IMG/VR virus record: IMGVR_UViG_3300017698_000036
Coordinates: 64,001 to 128,000 of that record
Length of the DNA stretch: 64,000 nt
Source of the DNA: a virus
Direction: 5' to 3' (one strand)
The position numbers and the translations under genes are program-made. Below, piece by piece: positions 3,853 to 12,697 of this stretch (positions are counted from its first letter, which is position 1; each line of letters opens with the position of its first letter). A model generated the notes under the pieces. It had not been told where the DNA came from and did no database searches. It was given only the letters and a program-made list of their open reading frames with translations.

Positions 3853-6800
3853 ATGAGTGTAGATAAATTTAAATTTATATCACCCGGTGTTCAAACAGCT
3901 GAGATTGATAACAGTGCTTCACCTACCATTGGTGACGGTGTAGGCCCTCTAATTATCGGTAGAGCCAAGCGTGGTCCTGTTATGACACCCATCAAACTAA
4001 GATCACAATCTGAGTTTGTGGAGATATTTGGAGAACCCGTTTCTGGAACAGCCAGTGGTGATGTATGGAGAGAGGGAGATATCCTTTCACCTATGTATGG
4101 AGCGTACGCCGCATATGCATACCTCAAAAACGTATCTCCGGTAACGTATGTAAGATTGGCAGGTTGGGAACATCCTGACAGAACAGACTCTTTCGGAGAG
4201 GCCGGTTTTAAAACCACATACACTGAATTATCGGAAAACACTGTAGCTTCCTTAGCCGCAGACGATACTAATGGTGGGGCCTACGGTTTGTTCGTAATGG
4301 ACAAATTTTCAACTCCAGTATCGAGTTCATTTGCAGACGTTACGGTAACTGCAACACCTACAGCTCCAGCCCTTACTGGTACCAACATTAGTATCGTAGA
4401 GGCCTCATCTGGTGTCGTTGCAAATAGTATCTTACAAGTTAAGATTGAAACCGCGGTAACCTCATTTGTATATTCTACCGATGGTGGGTCAACGTTTACA
4501 GGCGTGGCAGTTCCCTTTGTGGCAGATACACCCATACAGATAGGGACTACGGGTCTGTATGTTACATTTACTGGTAGTTATACTCTTGCTGACACCTTTG
4601 GTGTACATATGCAGAACAGTGACATGGTTCTGGCTGCAAAATTCTACTGTAATGATGGAGCAATGGCCCTTAAGGGTGATCTGATTGGTGGAACTACCCC
4701 TACCGACAGTACAAGCGCTGCAGGTCTTATTGACTCTGTTGGTTCTAACTATGAATTTGATCTTAAAGTATATGACTCTGACTGGAACAATGCTGGTACA
4801 GAGGACACTGATGCTGAGTTAGAAACTATTAGATTTAACTTTAACAGATCTTCAAGTAGATATATTAGAAAAGTATTCAGTACTAATCCCACTCTTACTA
4901 ACTCTGAAATTACTACGGCCTCTAATGTTAAGTCCTACTGGTTGGGAGAGTCATATGACCAATTCCTAACTGACTCTCTTACCGGTTCCACTGGTGTAGG
5001 TAGTCAAGTGGCCACCCTTCTTAAGATCGAATCTGATACTGATATCGTAGGAAGCGGAGCGGATTATAGATTCGCCGCTCAAGATGCAGAGTCCGGTTGG
5101 GTATTTGCACAGGACTTCAGTGCTGACTACACCCTGTACAATCCAGACAGTATGCAAAAACTCTTTAAGATTTATTCTAGAGGAGACGGTGACTGGGCAG
5201 GTAAAAACATTAAGGTTTCTTTTGATAACATCAGATACTCTTCATTCTCCAGTGATCCATACGGCAAGTTCGATGTATTGGTAAGAGATGCAAGCGACAC
5301 TGACAAGAAGATGAAAGTACTAGAGACTTTCGCTCAATGTACATTAAACCCCAACGACCCTAACTACGTAGCTAGAAAGATTGGTAATAGATACATGACT
5401 TGGGACTCTACTAACCTTAGATACAAACCCTTTGGTAGGTTTGAGAATAGATCTAAGTTTATTCGTCTTGAGATGGATCAAGATGTTGACACTGGTGCTC
5501 ATAACCAATACTGTCTCCCATGGGGATATTATGGTAAGCCAGTATATGCCAACATTACTATTGATACTACCGCCGCAGGTACTATTAACTTTACAGGTAA
5601 TCACTTTGTTAGAGGTGGTAACACCACTACATCGTATCTACCATTCGCCACTGAAACTACTCCCGGTACTTTGGACGTCGACAGTGTAGAGATTCTCTCC
5701 ACTCTTAAAGACGCCGTAGTTAAACTTAGAGATGACAGTGTTGATGGTAATATAATCAACTATAAAAAGGCCTTCTGGGGTCTGTATACTAATAGAGACA
5801 GTAGCGATAAGTTCGATACATCCTATTATGATTTGGTAAGAAGTAAGTCCACCATGGCTAACGCTACAGGCGGTACTGCTTCCGGTATGAAGTTCTCTCA
5901 CAAGTTTACTTTGGATGATACTAGATATTATAATCCTGGAGTATCTGGAAGTGCGATTAGAGCTACATACGCTTCTGGAAACAGGGTAGCCGGTGATTCC
6001 ATTTCCGCGGGTGAGAATGCAGATGGTACTACATCTTCACCAACATACACAAGAGTGGTAGACGCAGGATACGCAAGGTTTACAGTTGAACTCTACGGCG
6101 GTTTCGACGGTAGAGACGTTAAAGAAAAAGATCCATTTAGAAATGAAAGACTTTCTAAAAATGGTGGTTCTGAACAACTCAACTATGCAATGTACTCTGT
6201 TAACACTGCGTTAAATATTGTATCAGATTCAGACTTGGTAGAATTCAACCTGTTGGCCGTTAACGGAATTACCAACAATGAAGTAAATACTAAGATGATC
6301 GACATCTCAGAGACTAGAGCCGACTGTTTTGCAGTTATCGATACTGAAGGACAGTACGTACCTTCCCATGAGAATAACTCGGCCGAGACCAGTAGGGTTG
6401 GTTCCGTGTCTGGGGCCGTGAATGCTCACCTGGCCAACGATATTGATACTTCGTATGCCGGAGCATATTTCAACTGGCCACAGATTGTTGATGGTAACAA
6501 CAACAGTGCGTTAATCTATATGCCACCTAGTGTAGCTGCAGTTGATACATATGCGATGTCTCAAAGGTTAACCGAGATCTGGATGGCCCCTGCAGGATTT
6601 ACTAGAGGTAACCTGACTAGTGGAAATACTGGTTTGAATTATGTAGACCTTCTGTTCACTCTCAACAAGGATGATCGAGATGAATTGTACGAGGCCAACT
6701 TAAACCCCATCACTAAGAGATCCGACGGAATTCAAGTGTATGGTAATAAGACCTTAGAACAATCTCAGACCGTTCTGTCTAGAGTTAACGTACGAAGGAT

Positions 6801-7095
6801 GTTAATTTATATCAAGAAAGAGATTTCTAAAATGGCTAATACGGTTCTGTTTGATCCCAATGTGGATGTTACATGGAACAGATTCACCAGTAAGGTAGAA
6901 CCTTTCTTGGCGGGTGTTAGAACCGGTTTAGGTATAGAGAATTATAAAGTAACTCTTAACAGAAGTACAACCACTCCCGATCTAGTTGATAGAAATATCA
7001 TTTATGGAATAATTAAAGTTAAACCTGTACAGGTAGTAGAGTATATCGCTCTCGATTTCGTAATTACCAATGCCGGTGCAGCCTTTGATGATTAA
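3853..7095 (+). CDS. contractile tail sheath protein (gp18-like), 1080 aa
   Basis: N-terminal FISPGVQTAEIDNS and IIGRAKRGP. C-terminal WMAPAGFTRG, RDELYEANLNPI, GNKTL, RVNVRRML, NYKV..NRSTTTPDLVDRN and P.QVVEYIALDF. SD AAGGAG. Confidence 0.97.
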   Translation: MSVDKFKFISPGVQTAEIDNSASPTIGDGVGPLIIGRAKRGPVMTPIKLRSQSEFVEIFGEPVSGTASGDVWREGDILSPMYGAYAAYAYLKNVSPVTYVRLAGWEHPDRTDSFGEAGFKTTYTELSENTVASLAADDTNGGAYGLFVMDKFSTPVSSSFADVTVTATPTAPALTGTNISIVEASSGVVANSILQVKIETAVTSFVYSTDGGSTFTGVAVPFVADTPIQIGTTGLYVTFTGSYTLADTFGVHMQNSDMVLAAKFYCNDGAMALKGDLIGGTTPTDSTSAAGLIDSVGSNYEFDLKVYDSDWNNAGTEDTDAELETIRFNFNRSSSRYIRKVFSTNPTLTNSEITTASNVKSYWLGESYDQFLTDSLTGSTGVGSQVATLLKIESDTDIVGSGADYRFAAQDAESGWVFAQDFSADYTLYNPDSMQKLFKIYSRGDGDWAGKNIKVSFDNIRYSSFSSDPYGKFDVLVRDASDTDKKMKVLETFAQCTLNPNDPNYVARKIGNRYMTWDSTNLRYKPFGRFENRSKFIRLEMDQDVDTGAHNQYCLPWGYYGKPVYANITIDTTAAGTINFTGNHFVRGGNTTTSYLPFATETTPGTLDVDSVEILSTLKDAVVKLRDDSVDGNIINYKKAFWGLYTNRDSSDKFDTSYYDLVRSKSTMANATGGTASGMKFSHKFTLDDTRYYNPGVSGSAIRATYASGNRVAGDSISAGENADGTTSSPTYTRVVDAGYARFTVELYGGFDGRDVKEKDPFRNERLSKNGGSEQLNYAMYSVNTALNIVSDSDLVEFNLLAVNGITNNEVNTKMIDISETRADCFAVIDTEGQYVPSHENNSAETSRVGSVSGAVNAHLANDIDTSYAGAYFNWPQIVDGNNNSALIYMPPSVAAVDTYAMSQRLTEIWMAPAGFTRGNLTSGNTGLNYVDLLFTLNKDDRDELYEANLNPITKRSDGIQVYGNKTLEQSQTVLSRVNVRRMLIYIKKEISKMANTVLFDPNVDVTWNRFTSKVEPFLAGVRTGLGIENYKVTLNRSTTTPDLVDRNIIYGIIKVKPVQVVEYIALDFVITNAGAAFDD

Positions 7096-7151: not shown

Positions 7152-7802
7152 ATGCATATACATAAAATCTGTTCAACATGTAAGGAAGATAAACCAGCCA
7201 GCGAGTTTGGTAAAGATAAAAGACTCAAAAGTGGTTTAACCTCTCAATGTTACACCTGTAAAAGATTGTCTGAGAAAAAATACAGGGTCTCTGAAAAGGG
7301 TCAAAAAAGTAAAGCTGAGTATCGTACAAAAAATAGAGAACGAATAACTAGAAAGAACAAAGAGTGGTATATCGCTAATAGAGAACATGTAATATATAGA
7401 GTTACAGAGTATGAAAGGAATAACATTCAGGTTAGACTAAGACACAATATTTCGAAAAGAATCTCTATGGGATTAAAGAAAGACGGTTTTAAAAAAGACA
7501 AGTCTGTTATTGAGTATGTTGATTATAGTATGAATCAATTGGTTGAACATCTTGAGTTTCAATTTGAAGATTGGATGAATTGGGATAATTACGGTAATGG
7601 TGATGGATGTTGGTCGTTGGATCATATTATTCCTCAATCACGTTATGACTTCACGAACGATTTAGAGATTAGTTTATGTTGGAATCTTAGAAACTTAAGA
7701 CCTTTGAGTCATAAAGAGAATATTACTAAGAATGCCAAGTTTGATTTATTATTAATAGAAAAGTATGGTATTAGTGATTTACTACCAGGTAGGGATCGTT
7801 AA
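7152..7802 (+). CDS. free-standing HNH (homing-type) endonuclease
   Basis: N-terminal CxxC...CxxC finger; HLEFQFEDWMNWDNYG...WSLDHIIP...CWNLRNLRPL...EN..KN is an HNH motif. Lies between sheath and tube. Confidence 0.85.
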   Translation: MHIHKICSTCKEDKPASEFGKDKRLKSGLTSQCYTCKRLSEKKYRVSEKGQKSKAEYRTKNRERITRKNKEWYIANREHVIYRVTEYERNNIQVRLRHNISKRISMGLKKDGFKKDKSVIEYVDYSMNQLVEHLEFQFEDWMNWDNYGNGDGCWSLDHIIPQSRYDFTNDLEISLCWNLRNLRPLSHKENITKNAKFDLLLIEKYGISDLLPGRDR

Positions 7803-7826: not shown

Positions 7827-8390
7827 TTGAGTTTCTGGACAGACGAAAGAAATATAATTGAACCAAAAAGAAAAAATAGATGGGTTCTTATTATCAATAA
7901 TATCAAAGCCTACACATGTCTTAAGGCTGGTAAGCCGAAATATGAACAAGGTAAGGCCGAGCATAACTATATGGGTCACACCTACTACTTCCCCGGATCT
8001 ATCAAGTGGCAGCCCTCCGAGGTTACTGTTGTAGACCCTGTTGATGATCCTGCAACAAAAAAGTTGGTAGAGATTATAGAGAGATCCGGTTATCATCCAC
8101 TTAAAGACGTTAATGACTATGGTTTTGTATCTAAGAAAAAAGCCGTTGAAGAGTTGGGTCTCGTTAGATTGATGCAGATTGACGCAGTGGGTAATCCCGT
8201 TGAAACTTGGACGTTACATAATGCCTGGATTGAGAATGTTGACTTTGGTGACCTGGACTACGAAGATGATGGTTTAGTACAAATTACATTTACCATCTCT
8301 TTCGATTGGCCAACCCTTGAGAACGGTGACGGAACTAGAAACTTCGACTTAGGTGGAAGTAATCCCGCAGATACAACCCTTACTTTATAA
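7827..8390 (+). CDS. tail tube protein (gp19-like)
   Basis: EPKRKNRW, YFPGSIKWQP..VTVVDP, ETWTLHNAWI..VDFGDLDYEDD.LV.I..TISFDW. TTG start 6 nt after AAGGAG. Confidence 0.9.
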   Translation: MSFWTDERNIIEPKRKNRWVLIINNIKAYTCLKAGKPKYEQGKAEHNYMGHTYYFPGSIKWQPSEVTVVDPVDDPATKKLVEIIERSGYHPLKDVNDYGFVSKKKAVEELGLVRLMQIDAVGNPVETWTLHNAWIENVDFGDLDYEDDGLVQITFTISFDWPTLENGDGTRNFDLGGSNPADTTLTL

Positions 8391-8421
8391 AATCCCACAG
8401 AATCCTTAAAACGAGGTTAAA

Positions 8422-9414
8422 ATGAGTAGAAATGATGAAGAAAGATTGGGGATCACGAACGCACCAGTGTCGTCTCGTGAACAATTTAACTCAACGATGA
8501 AAGAGGCCGAAGTGATACAGGCTCCCAAACCCGTATCGTCCAACATCTCTCAACCTGTAGTGGACAGGGGGTTGGTGTTTGTAAACCCAACAAAACCAGT
8601 TGTACTACCTTCGAAGGGTGAAAAGTATCCCGAAGATCATCCACTGTATTGTGTAGAGGAGATCGAGATTAAACAGATGACCACAAATGAGGAAAACATC
8701 CTAACCAACCACGAATTGATAAGATCTGGTATGGCCATTGATGAGTTTCTCAGAAGTGTTATAGTTGATCGACGTATTGACCCTCAATCTCTATTAACCG
8801 GTGATAGGACTGCAATTCTCGTAGCTAGTAGAATATACGGTTACGGTTCAAACTATGTTGCCAAAGTACGATGTCCCATTTGTGGATCTATTATGGAGAG
8901 TGCTTTTGACCTAAAAGATGCGGTAGAGAACGGTTTAGAGGCCTTAGAACAGATTGAAGAAGTAGAGGCTGAATTTGGCGTTGTGTGGACTGGTAAAAAG
9001 ACCTTTAAGTTACATCTAGACACCACAGGGTGGGATGTAGAGTGTAAGTTGACAGACGGAAGAGACGAAAAGATTAACTTTGATATTAAACGAAAACGTG
9101 ATATCCAACAGAAACGTCTTCGTAAAAAGAACAAAGACATCATCGAGGTGGAAGACACCAAACATATGTCTGAATTTCTAAGATCCATTATTGTTTCTAT
9201 TGATGGAAATGATGGTGTAGGACCCAGAAAAGATAAGGGTCAGTTGAATAGGGCGATTGATTCCATGCCTACGATGGATATCGTTGTAATAAAAGATGTA
9301 TATAAACTTATTAATCCTAGAATCGCATTACTACAGGAATTATATTGTGAGAAATGCAATTACGAGGGGGTGATAGACGTTCCGATTAACGAAAACTTTT
9401 TTCGGGTTATCTGA
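8422..9414 (+). CDS. tail assembly chaperone / T4 gp26-like baseplate hub assembly protein
   Basis: VVLPSKG.KYP, IEIKQMTT.EE.IL, GDR.AIL..SRI.GYG.NY...V.CP.CG and a C-terminal CxxC. Lies between tube and tape measure. Confidence 0.7.
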   Translation: MSRNDEERLGITNAPVSSREQFNSTMKEAEVIQAPKPVSSNISQPVVDRGLVFVNPTKPVVLPSKGEKYPEDHPLYCVEEIEIKQMTTNEENILTNHELIRSGMAIDEFLRSVIVDRRIDPQSLLTGDRTAILVASRIYGYGSNYVAKVRCPICGSIMESAFDLKDAVENGLEALEQIEEVEAEFGVVWTGKKTFKLHLDTTGWDVECKLTDGRDEKINFDIKRKRDIQQKRLRKKNKDIIEVEDTKHMSEFLRSIIVSIDGNDGVGPRKDKGQLNRAIDSMPTMDIVVIKDVYKLINPRIALLQELYCEKCNYEGVIDVPINENFFRVI

Positions 9415-9655
9415 TAACTACGCGAAGAATATATTCGAACAGTTCCATTTTATGATGTATTATGGTAACTGGTCTTCACTTGCAGAGTTGGTCAACCTCC
9501 CCGTAGGTCTCCGTGACTTTTTCTTTAAAAAGCTTATTGAAACAAAGGAACGTGAGAAGGAGGCCAACTCAAACAAGGGAAATGCGAAAGAGGCTACTGC
9601 CGCCATTGCCAATCAAAACGCGGCTTATCAACATTATTCCAAAAGAACACAATAA
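9395..9655 (+). CDS. second (+1 frame) exon-like ORF of the tail chaperone (gp51-like / GT-type), probably reached by frameshift
   Basis: The +1 frame is open from 9377 and reads FFGLSDNYAKNIFEQFHFMMYYGNWSSLAELVNLPVGLRDFFFKKL. The ATG at 9452 has no SD. Confidence 0.6.
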   Translation, partial: TFFGLSDNYAKNIFEQFHFMMYYGNWSSLAELVNLPVGLRDFFFKKLIETKEREKEANSNKGNAKEATAAIANQNAAYQHYSKRTQ

Positions 9656-9853
9656 ATAAAAACGTAAAGGGGTCAAAAATCGATTCTGAGACACTTTATC
9701 TCATTTGACGATGTGTTGGTGTATCTTGGGTAGGAAACGTCAAAATGGTACCCAAATTTAAGTCTAATGACCTATCCCCTTTCTATAATCATTTGAGTGG
9801 TTGAACCTAAAAATGATAATTATAGGTAGTTCAAATGACGAGGAGTCTAGGAT

Positions 9854-10210
9854 ATGCATAAGATAGAGATAGATTTAAACAAGTTAAAAAGACAATCTGT
9901 TGACACGGAACGAGAAGATTTGGAGGAGGAACTGTTGAATGAGGGTGAGTTGGAACAGTTCGGTGCACAAATACAGCTTCTCCTGCAGAGAATGTTTGGT
10001 ATGAACAGTCTACCGGTTGAGATTACCGGTAATAAATCAGACGTAAGATCCTTTGCTCAGTTGGTTGGAAGAGAGAAGAACTATATTCAAAAGATAGCCG
10101 ACTATGGTCTTAATGATCCATCCGTTGTAAAGGACAAGTATAAGTTAAAACAGGCTATACATAAGTTCGAAAGAGAGACGGGCATAAAATATCCCTTTAA
10201 AACACGATAA
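9854..10210 (+). CDS. conserved-looking virion/tail-associated hypothetical protein
   Basis: 118 aa, SD GAGGAG, within the tail operon; contains LLNE-GELEQ. Confidence 0.5.
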   Translation: MHKIEIDLNKLKRQSVDTEREDLEEELLNEGELEQFGAQIQLLLQRMFGMNSLPVEITGNKSDVRSFAQLVGREKNYIQKIADYGLNDPSVVKDKYKLKQAIHKFERETGIKYPFKTR

Positions 10211-10225
10211 TAGGAAAACTCTGAT

Positions 10226-12697
10226 ATGGCAACTAAAATAGAAGAAGATCTTAGGAATCTAGAGTTAATAAAACAAAGTTACAGGGAATTACTAAGATTA
10301 GAAGAGGAGTTGGGGGAGGAACATCTTCAGACCAAGTTACACAGAGATACGATGTTGCAACAGGCTAAGTTTATACTTGATACGGAAGTAAAGACGGTAG
10401 AACAGTATAAGATTTTAGAAGAACATCTCGAAGGTATTAAAGACTCTCAGGAAGAGTATAACGAGATGCAACAACACAATTATCGTTTAAGTAGATTTAT
10501 GCGTAATGAAGTTGAGAAGGTATATGAGATAAAGGCCAAAGAGTATAAGTTGGAAGAAGATAAACTGGAGTACATGAGAGTTTCGGAAAAGATAACGAAA
10601 CAGGAGTATGAGGTTCGTCGTGATATACTAAACGATACGGCTAAGATGTATCAAAATCAAATTGATATAACTAAACAGACTAAACTGATGGTAACTGCCA
10701 GTACTGGACTTAGATCTCAGTACGGTGGTTTGGTAGAGGCCGCAAGACTGATAGGAAAGACTAGGGGCGGTTTTAGAGCTATGGGTGCTGGTATAGCCAG
10801 TGTATTAAACCCTATGAGTCTTTTATTGAACCTATTCCAAATGCATGTTGATAGAATAAAGGAGTTGGACGTAGCCAGAACTTCATTCAACCTACAGACC
10901 GGTGCGGTTAATAGATATAAAGAGCAGCTGGAGGATGCGTATCGTTCCAACATAAGGTACAATGTGAGTCTTCAAGAGATGAGCGGTTCATTTGCCTCTC
11001 TACATAAGGAGATGACAACGTTCTCTGGTATGTCTCAAAAAGCTCAAATGGATATTGCCGGATTCACTGCCAAACTTAGAAAGAACTTAGGGGTGGATGC
11101 TGTTGGAGGGTTGGAGACTTTAAGTAGGGTCATGGGTCAGACGGGAGACCAGGCAAAAGACACATTTACATCTATGATCGAGGAGGCAGACCAATTCAAT
11201 CTTAATATTCAGGAGGTTGGAAACGGTTTAATATCCAATGCCAACAATATAGCACTATACGGTAAACGTGGTGTTAAGGTGTATATGGAATTGGCTAAGA
11301 GATCTAAGACATTGGGTATCGAGATGGGTAAACTTCATGCGATGTCAGAACAGTTCTTAGACTTTGGTGCCGCTGCTCGAATGTCTGCAACCCTTGCTCA
11401 ATATGCGGGTAAACAGGTACTATCTGCCAGTAAGTTGATTACAGCCGATGCCGAAGAGCGTGTAGATATGATAACTGGAGCGGTTAGAAAGTTGGGTAAT
11501 TTCGAGAAGATGACTGCCCAAGAGCGAATGGATATTGCCCGCTCCATGGGTGTATCTACTGCAGATCTGGCCAAGATGATGAGGGGTGAAAAGACGGAGG
11601 CCCAAGAAAGACAGGAGACACAGAGAAATCTAAATACCATACTGAAACAGAGTATTACCGTCGCGGATAATATGACAAACGCGTGGAAGAATATGGTTCA
11701 AGCGTTAGGTCCTTTGTTGGATATTATGAGATGGGTTGTGGGAGTGTTTGCCGACTTTATGGCACTAGGAGGAGGTCTTATGGGTAAGATTATTCTTATT
11801 GGTGGTGCACTTATATGGTTAGCCTCTAAGATACTGGCCCTTGTTCCACCCATTAAGATATTAGGGGCCACTGTATCATTATCGACGTTACCGTTCACTC
11901 TATTCCTGGCTGCGATACTAGCCATTGCAGTAGCGGCGATATACTTTAGAGAAGAGATATTGGGGGCTTTCACGTATGTATTCGAAAGTCTAGGAGATAT
12001 GTTCTCAGATGCATATGAGTGGATGAAAGATGCAGGTTACAATATGGTTAAGTTCTTAGCGGACGGTATATGGTCTGCAGTAACATTACCAGTAAGAGCG
12101 ATAAAGAGTGTCGTGGGTAAGATAAGGGGTTTCCTACCCTTCTCTCCTGCTAAAGAAGGGCCCCTGAAGGATATTATGGATGTCGGTCCTAATATCGTAC
12201 GATTTATAGGTAATGGGATTGATGCAAACCAGGATATGGTAACTGAACCAATGAATAGATTGGCGGGTGATATAATGCATTCATCAATAACAAGTCCAAC
12301 ATCCATGGATGTCGGTCCTAATATCGTACGATTTATAGGTAATGGGATTGATGCAAACCAGGATATGGTAACTGGACCAATGAATAGATTGGCTGGTGAT
12401 ATAATGCATTCATCAATAACAAGTCCAACATCCATTACTAAGGCCATGGAGTCGACCACTTCTGATATTAAAAATAGGGAGGTTAATGACTTTAGAAAGG
12501 CTATTACCACATCTTCTAACGTGGACAATTCCAGTAGTTCATCCACCGCAGGAGATACCAACGTGGTTAATGGGGGAGCCCCCGGTCAACCTGTTATTAT
12601 TCAACTTAAGATTGATAGCAAGGTAATTAAAGAGATCGCCTTGGACGAAATAATGAAACAGACTAAATTAAGTAACGTATTTAGTACGTATAACTAA
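10226..12697 (+). CDS. tape measure protein
   Basis: 823 aa helical/coiled-coil N-terminus, Ala/Gly-rich middle, hydrophobic segments (approx. aa 490-580) and LPFSPAKEGPL motif; downstream of tube and chaperones. Confidence 0.85.
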   Translation: MATKIEEDLRNLELIKQSYRELLRLEEELGEEHLQTKLHRDTMLQQAKFILDTEVKTVEQYKILEEHLEGIKDSQEEYNEMQQHNYRLSRFMRNEVEKVYEIKAKEYKLEEDKLEYMRVSEKITKQEYEVRRDILNDTAKMYQNQIDITKQTKLMVTASTGLRSQYGGLVEAARLIGKTRGGFRAMGAGIASVLNPMSLLLNLFQMHVDRIKELDVARTSFNLQTGAVNRYKEQLEDAYRSNIRYNVSLQEMSGSFASLHKEMTTFSGMSQKAQMDIAGFTAKLRKNLGVDAVGGLETLSRVMGQTGDQAKDTFTSMIEEADQFNLNIQEVGNGLISNANNIALYGKRGVKVYMELAKRSKTLGIEMGKLHAMSEQFLDFGAAARMSATLAQYAGKQVLSASKLITADAEERVDMITGAVRKLGNFEKMTAQERMDIARSMGVSTADLAKMMRGEKTEAQERQETQRNLNTILKQSITVADNMTNAWKNMVQALGPLLDIMRWVVGVFADFMALGGGLMGKIILIGGALIWLASKILALVPPIKILGATVSLSTLPFTLFLAAILAIAVAAIYFREEILGAFTYVFESLGDMFSDAYEWMKDAGYNMVKFLADGIWSAVTLPVRAIKSVVGKIRGFLPFSPAKEGPLKDIMDVGPNIVRFIGNGIDANQDMVTEPMNRLAGDIMHSSITSPTSMDVGPNIVRFIGNGIDANQDMVTGPMNRLAGDIMHSSITSPTSITKAMESTTSDIKNREVNDFRKAITTSSNVDNSSSSSTAGDTNVVNGGAPGQPVIIQLKIDSKVIKEIALDEIMKQTKLSNVFSTYN
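12176..12433 (+). repeat. in-frame 129-bp tandem duplication (2 copies, 43 aa) in tape measure
   Basis: Copies 12176-12304 and 12305-12433 differ at 2 positions (gaa/gga, gcg/gct). Confidence 0.95.

What the first reader, a model, noticed from the sequence alone, without database searches (positions are those of the whole stretch)
9391..9655. Probable +1 programmed frameshift (TTT TTT CGG) joining the two tail-chaperone ORFs
The 0 frame ends GAA AAC TTT TTT CGG GTT ATC TGA. The +1 frame is open from 9377 with no start codon until an SD-less ATG at 9452, yet the upstream part reads as protein (GLSDNYAKNIFEQFHF-MMYYGNW). P-site tRNA-Phe can re-pair UUU to UUC while an Arg CGG codon (rare in many bacteria) sits in the A site. 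This is the UUU_CGN +1 motif established for influenza PA-X. Tail chaperone G/GT frameshifts are established, usually -1 (lambda) and -2 in Mu, so +1 would be unusual. Predicted products are 330 aa and 410 aa (+1) or 411 aa (-2).
Basis: partly seen in the sequence, partly recalled or inferred. Interest (0 to 1): 0.7.

Follow-up and report, generated by a model that had tools for sequence, protein, structure and literature searches.

The report
Frameshift in phage gp26-type tail chaperone
One tail-assembly helper gene of this uncultured T4-related phage very probably makes a short (330 aa) and a long (410 aa) protein because some ribosomes slip forward one base at TTT-TTT-CGG; this would give T4-type phages, long listed as the exception, their own version of the lambda G/GT trick.

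Summary
ORF 8422-9414 (330 aa) ends GAA AAC TTT TTT CGG GTT ATC TGA. The +1 frame is open from 9377 to 9655, and its first ATG (9452) has no Shine-Dalgarno sequence.

The gene belongs to the T4 gp26/gp51 family (Pfam PF12322). It lies between the tail tube gene and a tape-measure-like gene.

- All 16 relatives read, some very distant, keep the same frame break a few codons after the conserved Phe-Phe.
- All keep a conserved +1 peptide (FFGLSxEY...NLPxxLR) with third-position substitution bias and no conserved start codon.
- The only slip element common to all is TTT_Y. That fits a +1 shift of tRNA-Phe and excludes -2 in several relatives.
- Natural single-frame versions exist with exactly the +1 junction (EFF-GLS).
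- One contig instead carries two adjacent paralogs, one short and one long, and its short copy has non-slippery TTC TTC. T4 likewise has two genes, 26 and 51.
- The N-domain model matches the three solved tail assembly chaperones, and only those, at Z of 5 or more.

The shift has not been shown experimentally. Its efficiency and any stimulator are unknown. I found no published report in six literature searches. This scan has noted the same phenomenon on other DNA in over 200 genomes, mostly as -1 shifts.

The parts
8422..9414 (+). 0-frame gene for the short form (330 aa, P0001): T4 gp26/gp51-family protein with two CxxC pairs (RCPICGS, YCEKCNY) and a tail-assembly-chaperone-like N-domain
   Evidence: PF12322 at 9.6e-11 and 42.2 bits against a cut-off of 24.5; phrog_150 'baseplate hub' at 3.8e-12. 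AF2 model pLDDT 82.9. Residues 43-151 match 3fgx, 2ob9 and 3klu at Z 6.3, 5.6 and 5.5.
9397..9405 (+). Proposed shift site TTT TTT CGG: tRNA-Phe on TTT 9400-9402 re-pairs to TTC 9401-9403 while the rare CGG (9403-9405) awaits decoding; reading resumes at GGG 9404
   Evidence: Sequence read directly. TTT_Y is conserved in 16 relatives. CGG occurs 0.9 times per 1000 codons in this phage.
9377..9411 (+). Window in which the frame change must occur: between the last +1-frame stop (TAG 9374-9376) and the 0-frame stop (TGA 9412-9414)
   Evidence: In relatives L012-L015 this window is only about 8 codons and is centred on the T run.
9404..9655 (+). +1-frame extension, 83 codons plus TAA: GLSDNYAKNIFEQFHF...NLPVGLRDFFFKKLIE..., modelled in a homologue as three helices
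   Evidence: Conserved peptide family (A1, A3, A5). 674 clusters at 50% identity match it at E<=1e-3. Third-position substitution bias. Helices H290-307, 311-316 and 319-342 in the model of the natural fusion P0043.
7827..8390 (+). Tail tube gene, immediately upstream
   Evidence: phrog_4542 'tail tube protein' at 2.2e-20; weak PF06841 gp19 hit.
3853..7095 (+). Tail sheath gene (1080 aa)
   Evidence: phrog_23 at 2.7e-50; PF17482 and PF04984.
10226..12697 (+). Tape-measure-like gene (823 aa), downstream
   Evidence: ESM Atlas feature hits at 0.97, with 22 of 30 being tape measure clusters (a lead only). The syntenic genes are annotated as tape measure in immuto, LIS04 and HSE3.
9854..10210 (+). 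Conserved small ORF (118 aa) of unknown function between the chaperone and the tape-measure-like gene
   Evidence: No Pfam or PHROG hit. A 110-128 aa ORF sits in the same place in L007-L011 and L023.

Best explanation
The gene at 8422-9414 encodes a T4 gp26-type tail and baseplate-hub assembly chaperone. Most ribosomes stop at TGA 9412 and make the 330-aa short form. A minority, with tRNA-Phe in the P site on TTT 9400-9402 and the rare Arg codon CGG waiting in the A site, slip one base forward onto TTC. They then read GGG TTA TCT... and make a 410-aa long form (...ENFF-GLSDNYAK...) that carries an extra 83-residue helical tail. By analogy with lambda gpG/gpGT, the shared body would coat the tape measure protein and the rare long form would link that complex to another tail part through its tail (inferred). 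Shown here: the sequence features, their conservation, protein-level selection on the +1 frame, natural one-frame and two-gene equivalents, family membership, gene order and fold resemblance. Inferred: that the shift is ribosomal and +1, that it is inefficient, and what the two forms bind.
For: (1) The site and frames are as described. (2) All 16 relatives read keep the 0-frame stop 3-6 codons after [DENK]-F-F, or F-L in two of them. All keep a +1 frame of 61-122 codons with a homologous peptide, and the third frame is closed. They include isolates from five host genera: Microcystis Mel-JY01, Flavobacterium immuto, Streptococcus GXN1, Bacillus SP-15 and HSE3, and Listeria LIS04. (3) There is no conserved start. 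L012-L014 have no ATG in the +1 ORF, and L015 has only one, 55 codons in. Candidate starts elsewhere lack Shine-Dalgarno sequences and lie inside the conserved region. (4) Substitutions in the +1 frame fall mainly on third codon positions in 9 pairs. (5) Natural in-frame fusions exist. P0043 (347 aa, junction EFF-GLS, DNA GAG TTT TTT GGC) is identical in two independent samples. P0274 and P0284 (junction without any T run) are also in frame. (6) Contig L023 has two adjacent PF12322 paralogs. The short one ends FFWPDVDV*, has its FF encoded TTC TTC, and has a closed +1 frame. The long one carries the extension in frame. (7) T4 gp26 ends ...EFFELL* at the same motif. T4 gp51 is also PF12322 (3.9e-52) and has 48 extra C-terminal residues. 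T4 has two PF12322 genes. SP-15, HSE3 and this contig have one each. (8) In both AF2 models, the only PDB chains with Z>=5 among 48,161 are 3fgx, 3klu and 2ob9. PMC9603447 describes all three as tail assembly chaperones. (9) CGG is the rarest Arg codon in this phage. UUU_CGU is an established +1 site in influenza PA-X, where it works at very low level without stimulators (PMC5009743).
Against: There is no experimental evidence: no peptide, reporter or ribosome profiling data. No stimulatory RNA structure was found (z -0.88 and 0.04). No suitably spaced Shine-Dalgarno-like element is present. In-frame TTT TTT C and TTT TTT T also occur in other long ORFs of this phage, so the motif alone cannot be an efficient shifter. 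The A-site codon is not conserved (CGG, TGG, CCA, CGT, CTA, AGT, CAC), so the hungry-codon part may hold only for this sub-lineage. The host and its tRNA pool are unknown. The T6 or T7 run present in most relatives would also allow RNA polymerase slippage. Fold matches at Z 5.5-6.3 are middling by the tool's own caution.
Confidence: 0.7

Rival explanations
1. Transcriptional slippage. RNA polymerase drops one U (or adds two) in the T6 run, so a minority of mRNAs encode the long form in one frame and the ribosome does nothing unusual.
For: Most relatives have T6 or T7 at the junction. In-frame variants differ from the frameshifted ones by exactly one T: T6-GGC against T7-GG. No RNA structure or Shine-Dalgarno-like stimulator for a ribosomal shift was found.
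Against: Relatives with TTT CTT TGG, TTC TTT CGT and TTT CTA TTC have no homopolymer run yet keep the same architecture. By general knowledge of bacterial RNA polymerase slippage, a T6 run is short. The contig has 43 other T6+ runs on this strand.
Confidence: 0.1
2. A -2 ribosomal frameshift. The P-site tRNA-Phe slips back two bases within the T run, giving ...ENFFF-GLS... (411 aa), as reported for phage Mu's tail chaperone.
For: TTT TTT allows perfect re-pairing two bases back. A -2 shift is documented for Mu (PMC5009743).
Against: A -2 shift cannot re-pair in immuto, LR756508, GXN1 or HSE3. The natural in-frame proteins have two Phe before Gly, not three.
Confidence: 0.07
3. There is no recoding. 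The downstream frame is a separate small gene, translated from ATG 9452 or by re-initiation after the TGA, giving a 67-aa protein.
For: Gene callers often call this frame as a stand-alone 46-130 aa ORF. Some relatives have a start-like codon 2-3 codons before FF, for example P0142 (MRTFFGLS) and P0146.
Against: In the window there is no start codon between 9377 and 9452, and no Shine-Dalgarno sequence at 9452. The 18 residues before that ATG (FFGLSDNYAKNIFEQFHF) include invariant positions F1, L4 and Y8. L012-L014 have no ATG in the +1 ORF. Natural fused proteins exist.
Confidence: 0.06
4. Artefact or decay. The frame break is a homopolymer sequencing error or a pseudogene, and the real gene is a single 410-aa frame.
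For: A few database versions are in frame with T6-GGC. One low-coverage long-read contig (L021) has T8 and other breaks.
Against: The break is present in the window and in all 16 relatives read, which come from independent records (JGI, ENA and seven GenBank phage records), with different site sequences, some without a homopolymer. All 38 homologues (209-322 aa) lack the extension, and those aligned end 2-5 residues after the Phe-Phe.
Confidence: 0.03

Closest known systems
Lambda gpG/gpGT and the conserved tail-assembly-chaperone frameshift of long-tailed phages (P2 E/E+E', Mu; Xu, Hendrix and Duda 2004, as reviewed in PMC5009743)
   Same: The gene lies between the tube and tape-measure genes. 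There are two overlapping frames, with a slip site a few codons before the first stop. Short and long products share an N-terminal body. The architecture is conserved despite sequence divergence. The N-domain model resembles the solved chaperones 2ob9, 3klu and 3fgx.
   Different: The shift is +1 at UUU_UUU_Y, not -1 at X XXY YYZ. The protein is larger (330 aa) and belongs to PF12322, with two CxxC pairs. It has no sequence match to Pfam tail-assembly-chaperone families. An extra 118-aa ORF lies before the tape-measure-like gene. Binding partners are untested.
Phage T4 gp26 (208 aa) and gp51 (249 aa), baseplate hub assembly proteins
   Same: Same Pfam family. gp26 ends 3 residues after the same E-F-F motif. 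gp51 is the same domain plus a 48-residue tail that starts at the equivalent V-F position. This is a short and long pair, like the one proposed here and like the two paralogs in L023.
   Different: T4 uses two genes on opposite strands and no frameshift, and they are not next to the tube gene. Homology of the gp51 tail to the +1 extension is not established. The best hhalign alignment is tail-to-tail, but at probability 1.2% and E 0.042.
Influenza A PA-X +1 frameshift at UCC_UUU_CGU (and UUU_CGN sites in other RNA viruses; PMC5009743)
   Same: P-site UUU followed by a CGN Arg codon. tRNA-Phe can re-pair to UUC. No stimulatory structure is evident. A low level is expected.
   Different: This is a bacterial rather than a eukaryotic ribosome. 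The CGN codon is not conserved among relatives (mostly UGG). A second UUU precedes the site.
[quoted passage not shown]
   Same: A +1 direction is used to add a C-terminal extension to a structural or assembly protein. For HSTV-2 it occurs in the chaperone position of a myovirus.
   Different: PSA shifts on a Pro codon before a stop codon or a pseudoknot. Neither case involves the gp26 family or a UUU_Y site. None of this was compared at sequence level here.

Membership tests
T4 gp26/gp51 family (Pfam PF12322 T4_baseplate; PHROG 150 baseplate hub) | Profile HMM match above the curated cut-off over most of the model | tested here: met
   42.2 bits against a cut-off of 24.5, model positions 9-218 of 219. 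phrog_150 at 3.8e-12. All 39 homologues carry PF12322.
T4 gp26/gp51 family (Pfam PF12322 T4_baseplate; PHROG 150 baseplate hub) | Two CxxC pairs, and a C-terminal [DE]-F-F motif at the end of the domain | tested here: met
   RCPICGS and YCEKCNY, then ...ENFF, in P0001. T4 gp26 has CTCG/CPECG and ...KEFFELL*. FF is nearly invariant in A4.
Frameshift-expressed tail assembly chaperone pair (lambda G/GT type) | Gene located between the tail tube gene and the tape measure gene | tested here: met
   Tube 7827-8390, chaperone 8422-9655, 118-aa ORF, then the 823-aa tape-measure-like gene. The order is the same in relatives whose tape measure gene is annotated.
Frameshift-expressed tail assembly chaperone pair (lambda G/GT type) | Overlapping second frame without its own start, reached at a slippery site near the 3' end and conserved among relatives | tested here: met
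Frameshift-expressed tail assembly chaperone pair (lambda G/GT type) | Tail-assembly-chaperone fold of the shared N-terminal body | tested here: inconclusive
   3fgx, 2ob9 and 3klu are the only chains at Z>=5 (Z 5.5-6.3, 84-92 residues aligned, rmsd 4.3-7.8) in two independent models. These are the top three of 48,161 chains, but Z is below 8. Foldseek gave 2ob9 only E=2.
Frameshift-expressed tail assembly chaperone pair (lambda G/GT type) | Sequence membership in a described tail-assembly-chaperone family | tested here: not met
   Pfam and PHROG scans of P0001 and of the extension return only PF12322 and phrog_150. I therefore file it as working like G/GT, not as a member of those families.
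Frameshift-expressed tail assembly chaperone pair (lambda G/GT type) | Two products in a fixed ratio, absent from virions; short form binds the tape measure, long form also binds the tube or hub | not testable with these tools
   Needs expression, mass spectrometry and pull-downs.
+1 ribosomal frameshift of the UUU_CGN type (influenza PA-X) | P-site UUU that can re-pair as UUC, followed by a slowly decoded CGN codon | tested here: met
   TTT TTT CGG at 9397-9405. CGG is 34 of 1683 Arg codons in this phage. Host tRNA abundance is unknown.
+1 ribosomal frameshift of the UUU_CGN type (influenza PA-X) | Demonstrated trans-frame product with the +1 junction | not testable with these tools
   Only indirect support: natural in-frame relatives have the FF-G junction.

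The most novel reading that the evidence does not exclude
The gp26/gp51 family is the long-missing tail assembly chaperone of T4-type and many other large myoviruses. It shares its fold with lambda-type gpG. Its short and long pair is obligatory and has been encoded at least three ways seen here: a +1 frameshift at UUU_Y (this phage), two paralogous genes (T4 26/51, L023), or a single fused frame. Other notes of this scan report a -1 shift as a further way. That would remove T4 as the stated exception to the universal G/GT rule and assign a mechanism to gp26 and gp51.
Probability: 0.5. Interest if true: 0.75.

Novelty: new variant of a known kind. Interest (0 to 1): 0.66.

Why it matters
The 2016 recoding review (PMC5009743) states that G-T frameshifting is conserved among long-tailed phages 'except T4'. 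The roles of T4 gp26 and gp51 in hub assembly are poorly understood; PMC9024508 calls them only 'proposed' chaperones or cofactors.

A conserved frameshift in the gp26 family connects these two facts. The family shows chaperone gene position, a chaperone-like fold and a two-gene equivalent. Together these give a directly testable model for how T4-type tails start.

It also matters for annotation. None of the GenBank records read marks the shift. Databases hold hundreds of spurious small 'hypothetical proteins' that are really the +1 tail: 674 clusters at 50% identity.

It adds a bacterial-virus example of a +1 shift on UUU_Y with no obvious stimulator.

Tried and rejected
- DNA-level search of phage records with 8300-9900: no match. 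tblastn of the extension against phage records: no match.
- The search for related loci in IMG/VR with P0001: nothing confirmed.
- RNA structure: the folds of 9403-9500 and 9340-9460 are no better than shuffles. No terminator or notable promoter lies near the site.
The only relaxed-threshold call is a poor 96-base structure. The contig is about 70% complete, so this is not excluded.
- Homology of the +1 tail to the T4 gp51 tail: three hhalign runs with growing profiles gave probabilities of 0.2-1.2%. Only the last aligned tail to tail. I do not claim it.
- Foldseek against PDB: no hit at E<=0.001.
- The extension alone gives only generic helical matches.
- Shine-Dalgarno-like GAGGGGGTGAT at 9365-9375: it lies 24 nt from the slip codon, too far for known +1 stimulation by my knowledge of prfB. 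It is explained by conserved E-[GEV]-V codons, so I rejected it as a stimulator.
- Stop-codon reassignment: rejected. Relatives use TAA, TAG and TGA as the 0-frame stop, and the extension is in another frame.
- Literature: six searches found no paper on a gp26 or gp51 frameshift.

Full report
**1. The observation**

- ORF 8422-9414 (330 aa, P0001) ends GAA AAC TTT TTT CGG GTT ATC TGA. The two TTT codons are at 9397-9402, CGG is at 9403-9405 and the stop is at 9412-9414.
- The +1 frame is closed by TGA TAG at 9371-9376. It is then open for 92 codons to TAA at 9653-9655. The third frame closes after 21 codons.
- The first ATG in the +1 frame is at 9452 and has no Shine-Dalgarno sequence upstream.
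- A +1 shift on the second TTT gives 327 + 83 = 410 aa. A -2 shift gives 411 aa.

**2. What the gene is**

- P0001 matches Pfam PF12322 'T4_baseplate' at 42.2 bits against a cut-off of 24.5, covering model positions 9-218 of 219. It also matches PHROG 150 'baseplate hub'.
- The +1 peptide alone hits nothing in Pfam or PHROGs.
- The gene order is: sheath (3853-7095), an endonuclease VII/HNH-like gene (7152-7802), tail tube (7827-8390), this gene, a 118-aa ORF (9854-10210), then an 823-aa protein.
- The ESM Atlas places the 823-aa protein among tape measure proteins, at score 0.97 with 22 of 30 hits. This is a lead only.
- The window is part of a 138,656-bp IMG/VR virus contig estimated about 70% complete.

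**3. Conservation of the frame break**

Distant homologues in GenBank phages all show the same features:
- The phages are Microcystis Mel-JY01, Flavobacterium immuto, Streptococcus GXN1, Bacillus SP-15 and HSE3, Listeria LIS04 and the uncultured huge phage LR756508.
- The gene sits after the tube gene and before the (annotated) tape measure gene.
- The 0 frame stops 3-6 codons after a [DEN]-F-F/L motif.
- The +1 frame continues for 70-120 codons.
- No record annotates a frameshift.

Nine metagenome loci fetched through closer homologues behave identically. The 38 homologues are 209-322 aa long. None has the 61-85-residue extension, and those aligned end 2-5 residues after the Phe-Phe.

The +1 peptides align as one family, FFGLSxEY....F..[LM].Y.GG[WF]S..E..NLP.GLR.[WF]F...L, followed by a Lys/Glu-rich tail.

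Substitutions between pairs fall mainly on the third codon position of the +1 frame. Examples are 4:2:16, 6:2:18, 3:2:10 and 14:5:24. That frame is therefore under protein-level selection.

A profile of the extension finds 674 clusters at 50% identity (117 at E<=1e-10). Almost all are 46-130 aa ORFs, which means gene callers have called the tail as an orphan gene.

**4. Not a separate gene**

- In the window, the 18 residues upstream of ATG 9452 include invariant positions of the family.
- L012-L014 have no ATG anywhere in the +1 ORF, and L015 has only one, 55 codons in.
- Candidate starts are scattered and have no Shine-Dalgarno sequence.
- In L012-L015 the +1 frame opens only three codons before the Phe-Phe. 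This confines the frame change to about eight codons around the T run.

**5. Direction and site**

The site sequences are:

| Relative(s) | Site |
|---|---|
| window, L007 | TTT TTT CGG |
| L008 | TTT TTT CCA |
| eight relatives | TTT TTT TGG |
| SP-15 | TTT TTT CAC |
| LIS04 | TTT TTT AGT |
| GXN1, HSE3 | TTC TTT CGT |
| immuto | TTT CTT TGG |
| LR756508 | TTT CTA TTC |

- Except in LIS04, every site has a TTT followed by C or T. tRNA-Phe can then re-pair one base downstream. In LIS04 the slip can occur on the first TTT of the run.
- A -2 slip cannot re-pair in the last four relatives of the table.
- So +1 is the one mechanism that fits the whole family.
- In this phage CGG is the rarest Arg codon, at 34 of 1683 or 0.9 per 1000.
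- No RNA structure stands out (z -0.88 and 0.04).
- In-frame TTT TTT C and TTT TTT T occur in other genes of the phage. I therefore expect a low efficiency, as in lambda G/GT (about 30:1) and PA-X (PMC5009743).

**6. Natural equivalents of the long form**

A search for longer proteins carrying the extension found P0043 (347 aa, PF12322).
- Body and tail are in one frame, with junction ...GVEFF-GLSDAY....
- The DNA reads GAG TTT TTT GGC, one T fewer than the usual T7.
- It is identical in two independent samples.
- This is exactly the predicted +1 product, not the -2 product.

P0274 (308 aa) and P0284 (313 aa) are further in-frame forms. P0284 has no T run at the junction.

The contig of P0284 (L023) carries two adjacent PF12322 paralogs.
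- The upstream one is a short form ending ...GVGFFWPDVDV*. Its Phe-Phe is encoded TTC TTC, and its +1 frame is closed at once by TAG.
- The downstream one is the long form.
- So where the long form has its own gene, the slippery run is gone.

**7. T4**

A lead from earlier notes of this scan said that T4 makes the pair from genes 26 and 51. I checked the following.
- gp26 (208 aa) ends ...KEFFELL* and gene 25 follows, so it has no extension.
- gp51 (249 aa) is also PF12322 (3.9e-52 over residues 1-201). It has 48 further residues starting at the equivalent ...DVF-KLLVNPDE... position.
- T4 has two PF12322 genes. The complete genomes of SP-15 and HSE3, and this contig, have one each.
- Homology between the gp51 tail and the +1 tail is not established. 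With the broadest profile, the best hhalign alignment is tail-to-tail and in register, but at probability 1.2% and E 0.042.

**8. Fold**

- The AF2 model of the natural fusion P0043 has pLDDT 85.4 and pTM 0.78. It shows the extension as three helices.
- The model of the window's own P0001 has pLDDT 82.9.
- Both models were searched exhaustively with VIA-align against 48,161 PDB representatives. In each search the only chains with Z>=5 are 3fgx_B (6.3), 3klu_A (6.0 and 5.5) and 2ob9_B (5.5 and 5.6). They cover residues 43-151 of P0001 and most of each target. The next unrelated fold scores 4.1 in the P0001 search.
- PMC9603447 states that these three are phage tail assembly chaperones.
- The Z values are middling, and Foldseek alone did not find them significantly. 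I rate the fold link as likely but not proven.
- BFVD hits are gp26/gp51-family 'baseplate hub' proteins.

**9. Reading**

The best explanation is a programmed, probably inefficient, +1 ribosomal frameshift. It makes a lambda G/GT-like short and long chaperone pair from a gp26-family gene.

| Rival | Confidence |
|---|---|
| Transcriptional slippage | 0.10 |
| -2 ribosomal shift | 0.07 |
| Independent small gene | 0.06 |
| Sequencing artefact or pseudogene | 0.03 |

**10. Novelty**

- Six literature searches found no report of a gp26 or gp51 frameshift.
- The main review lists T4 as the exception to G-T frameshifting.
- The library lacks most subscription journals, so an earlier report cannot be excluded.
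- Within this scan the phenomenon has been noted on other DNA in over 200 genomes. Most are -1 shifts at T TTT TTC, and at least one is a +1 shift at UUU UUU CGG. I did not test the -1 cases.

Noticed in passing
window 7152-7802 (+): An endonuclease VII/HNH-like gene (phrog_1035 at 3.8e-22) sits between the sheath and tube genes. Relatives have sheath and tube adjacent, so it looks like a homing-endonuclease insertion.
   Followed up: no
window 9365-9375: A strong Shine-Dalgarno-like GAGGGGGTGAT lies 24 nt upstream of the slip codon. Most relatives have GAGGT or GGAGG 18-27 nt upstream, encoded by the conserved E-V-P residues. The distance is too great for known +1 stimulators, so its meaning is unclear.
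   Followed up: partly
L023:1-1720: Two adjacent PF12322 paralogs on one metagenome contig. The short one has FF encoded TTC TTC. The long one has the extension in frame. This is a two-gene version of the pair, like T4 26/51 but in tandem.
   Followed up: yes
L019:1368-2411 and L020:140-1183: A relative whose chaperone gene is a single 347-aa frame (T6-GGC instead of T7-GG), identical in two independent samples. It would make only the long form unless another event restores a short one.
   Followed up: partly
P0043 residues 173-281; P0001 residues 192-302: The second half of the gp26-family protein matches the first half of the Pfam model (two stretches). It gives a weak fold match to a PICI ORF19 protein (5ir0, Z 4.1-4.5). 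The family may be an internal duplication of a chaperone-like unit, each half ending in a CxxC.
   Followed up: no
window 9854-10210 (+): A 118-aa ORF with no family hit lies between the chaperone and the tape-measure-like gene. An ORF of 110-128 aa sits in the same place in L007-L011 and L023. It may be a second assembly factor.
   Followed up: no
whole contig G000 (138,656 bp): ARAGORN finds no tRNA gene in the recovered 70% of this large phage genome. 82 of the 83 ORFs of 150 aa or more are on one strand.
   Followed up: partly
public protein databases: 674 clusters at 50% identity of 46-130 aa 'proteins' are really the +1 tail of this gene family, called as orphan ORFs. Some are fused by chance to unrelated sequence (P0044, P0045).
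   Followed up: partly
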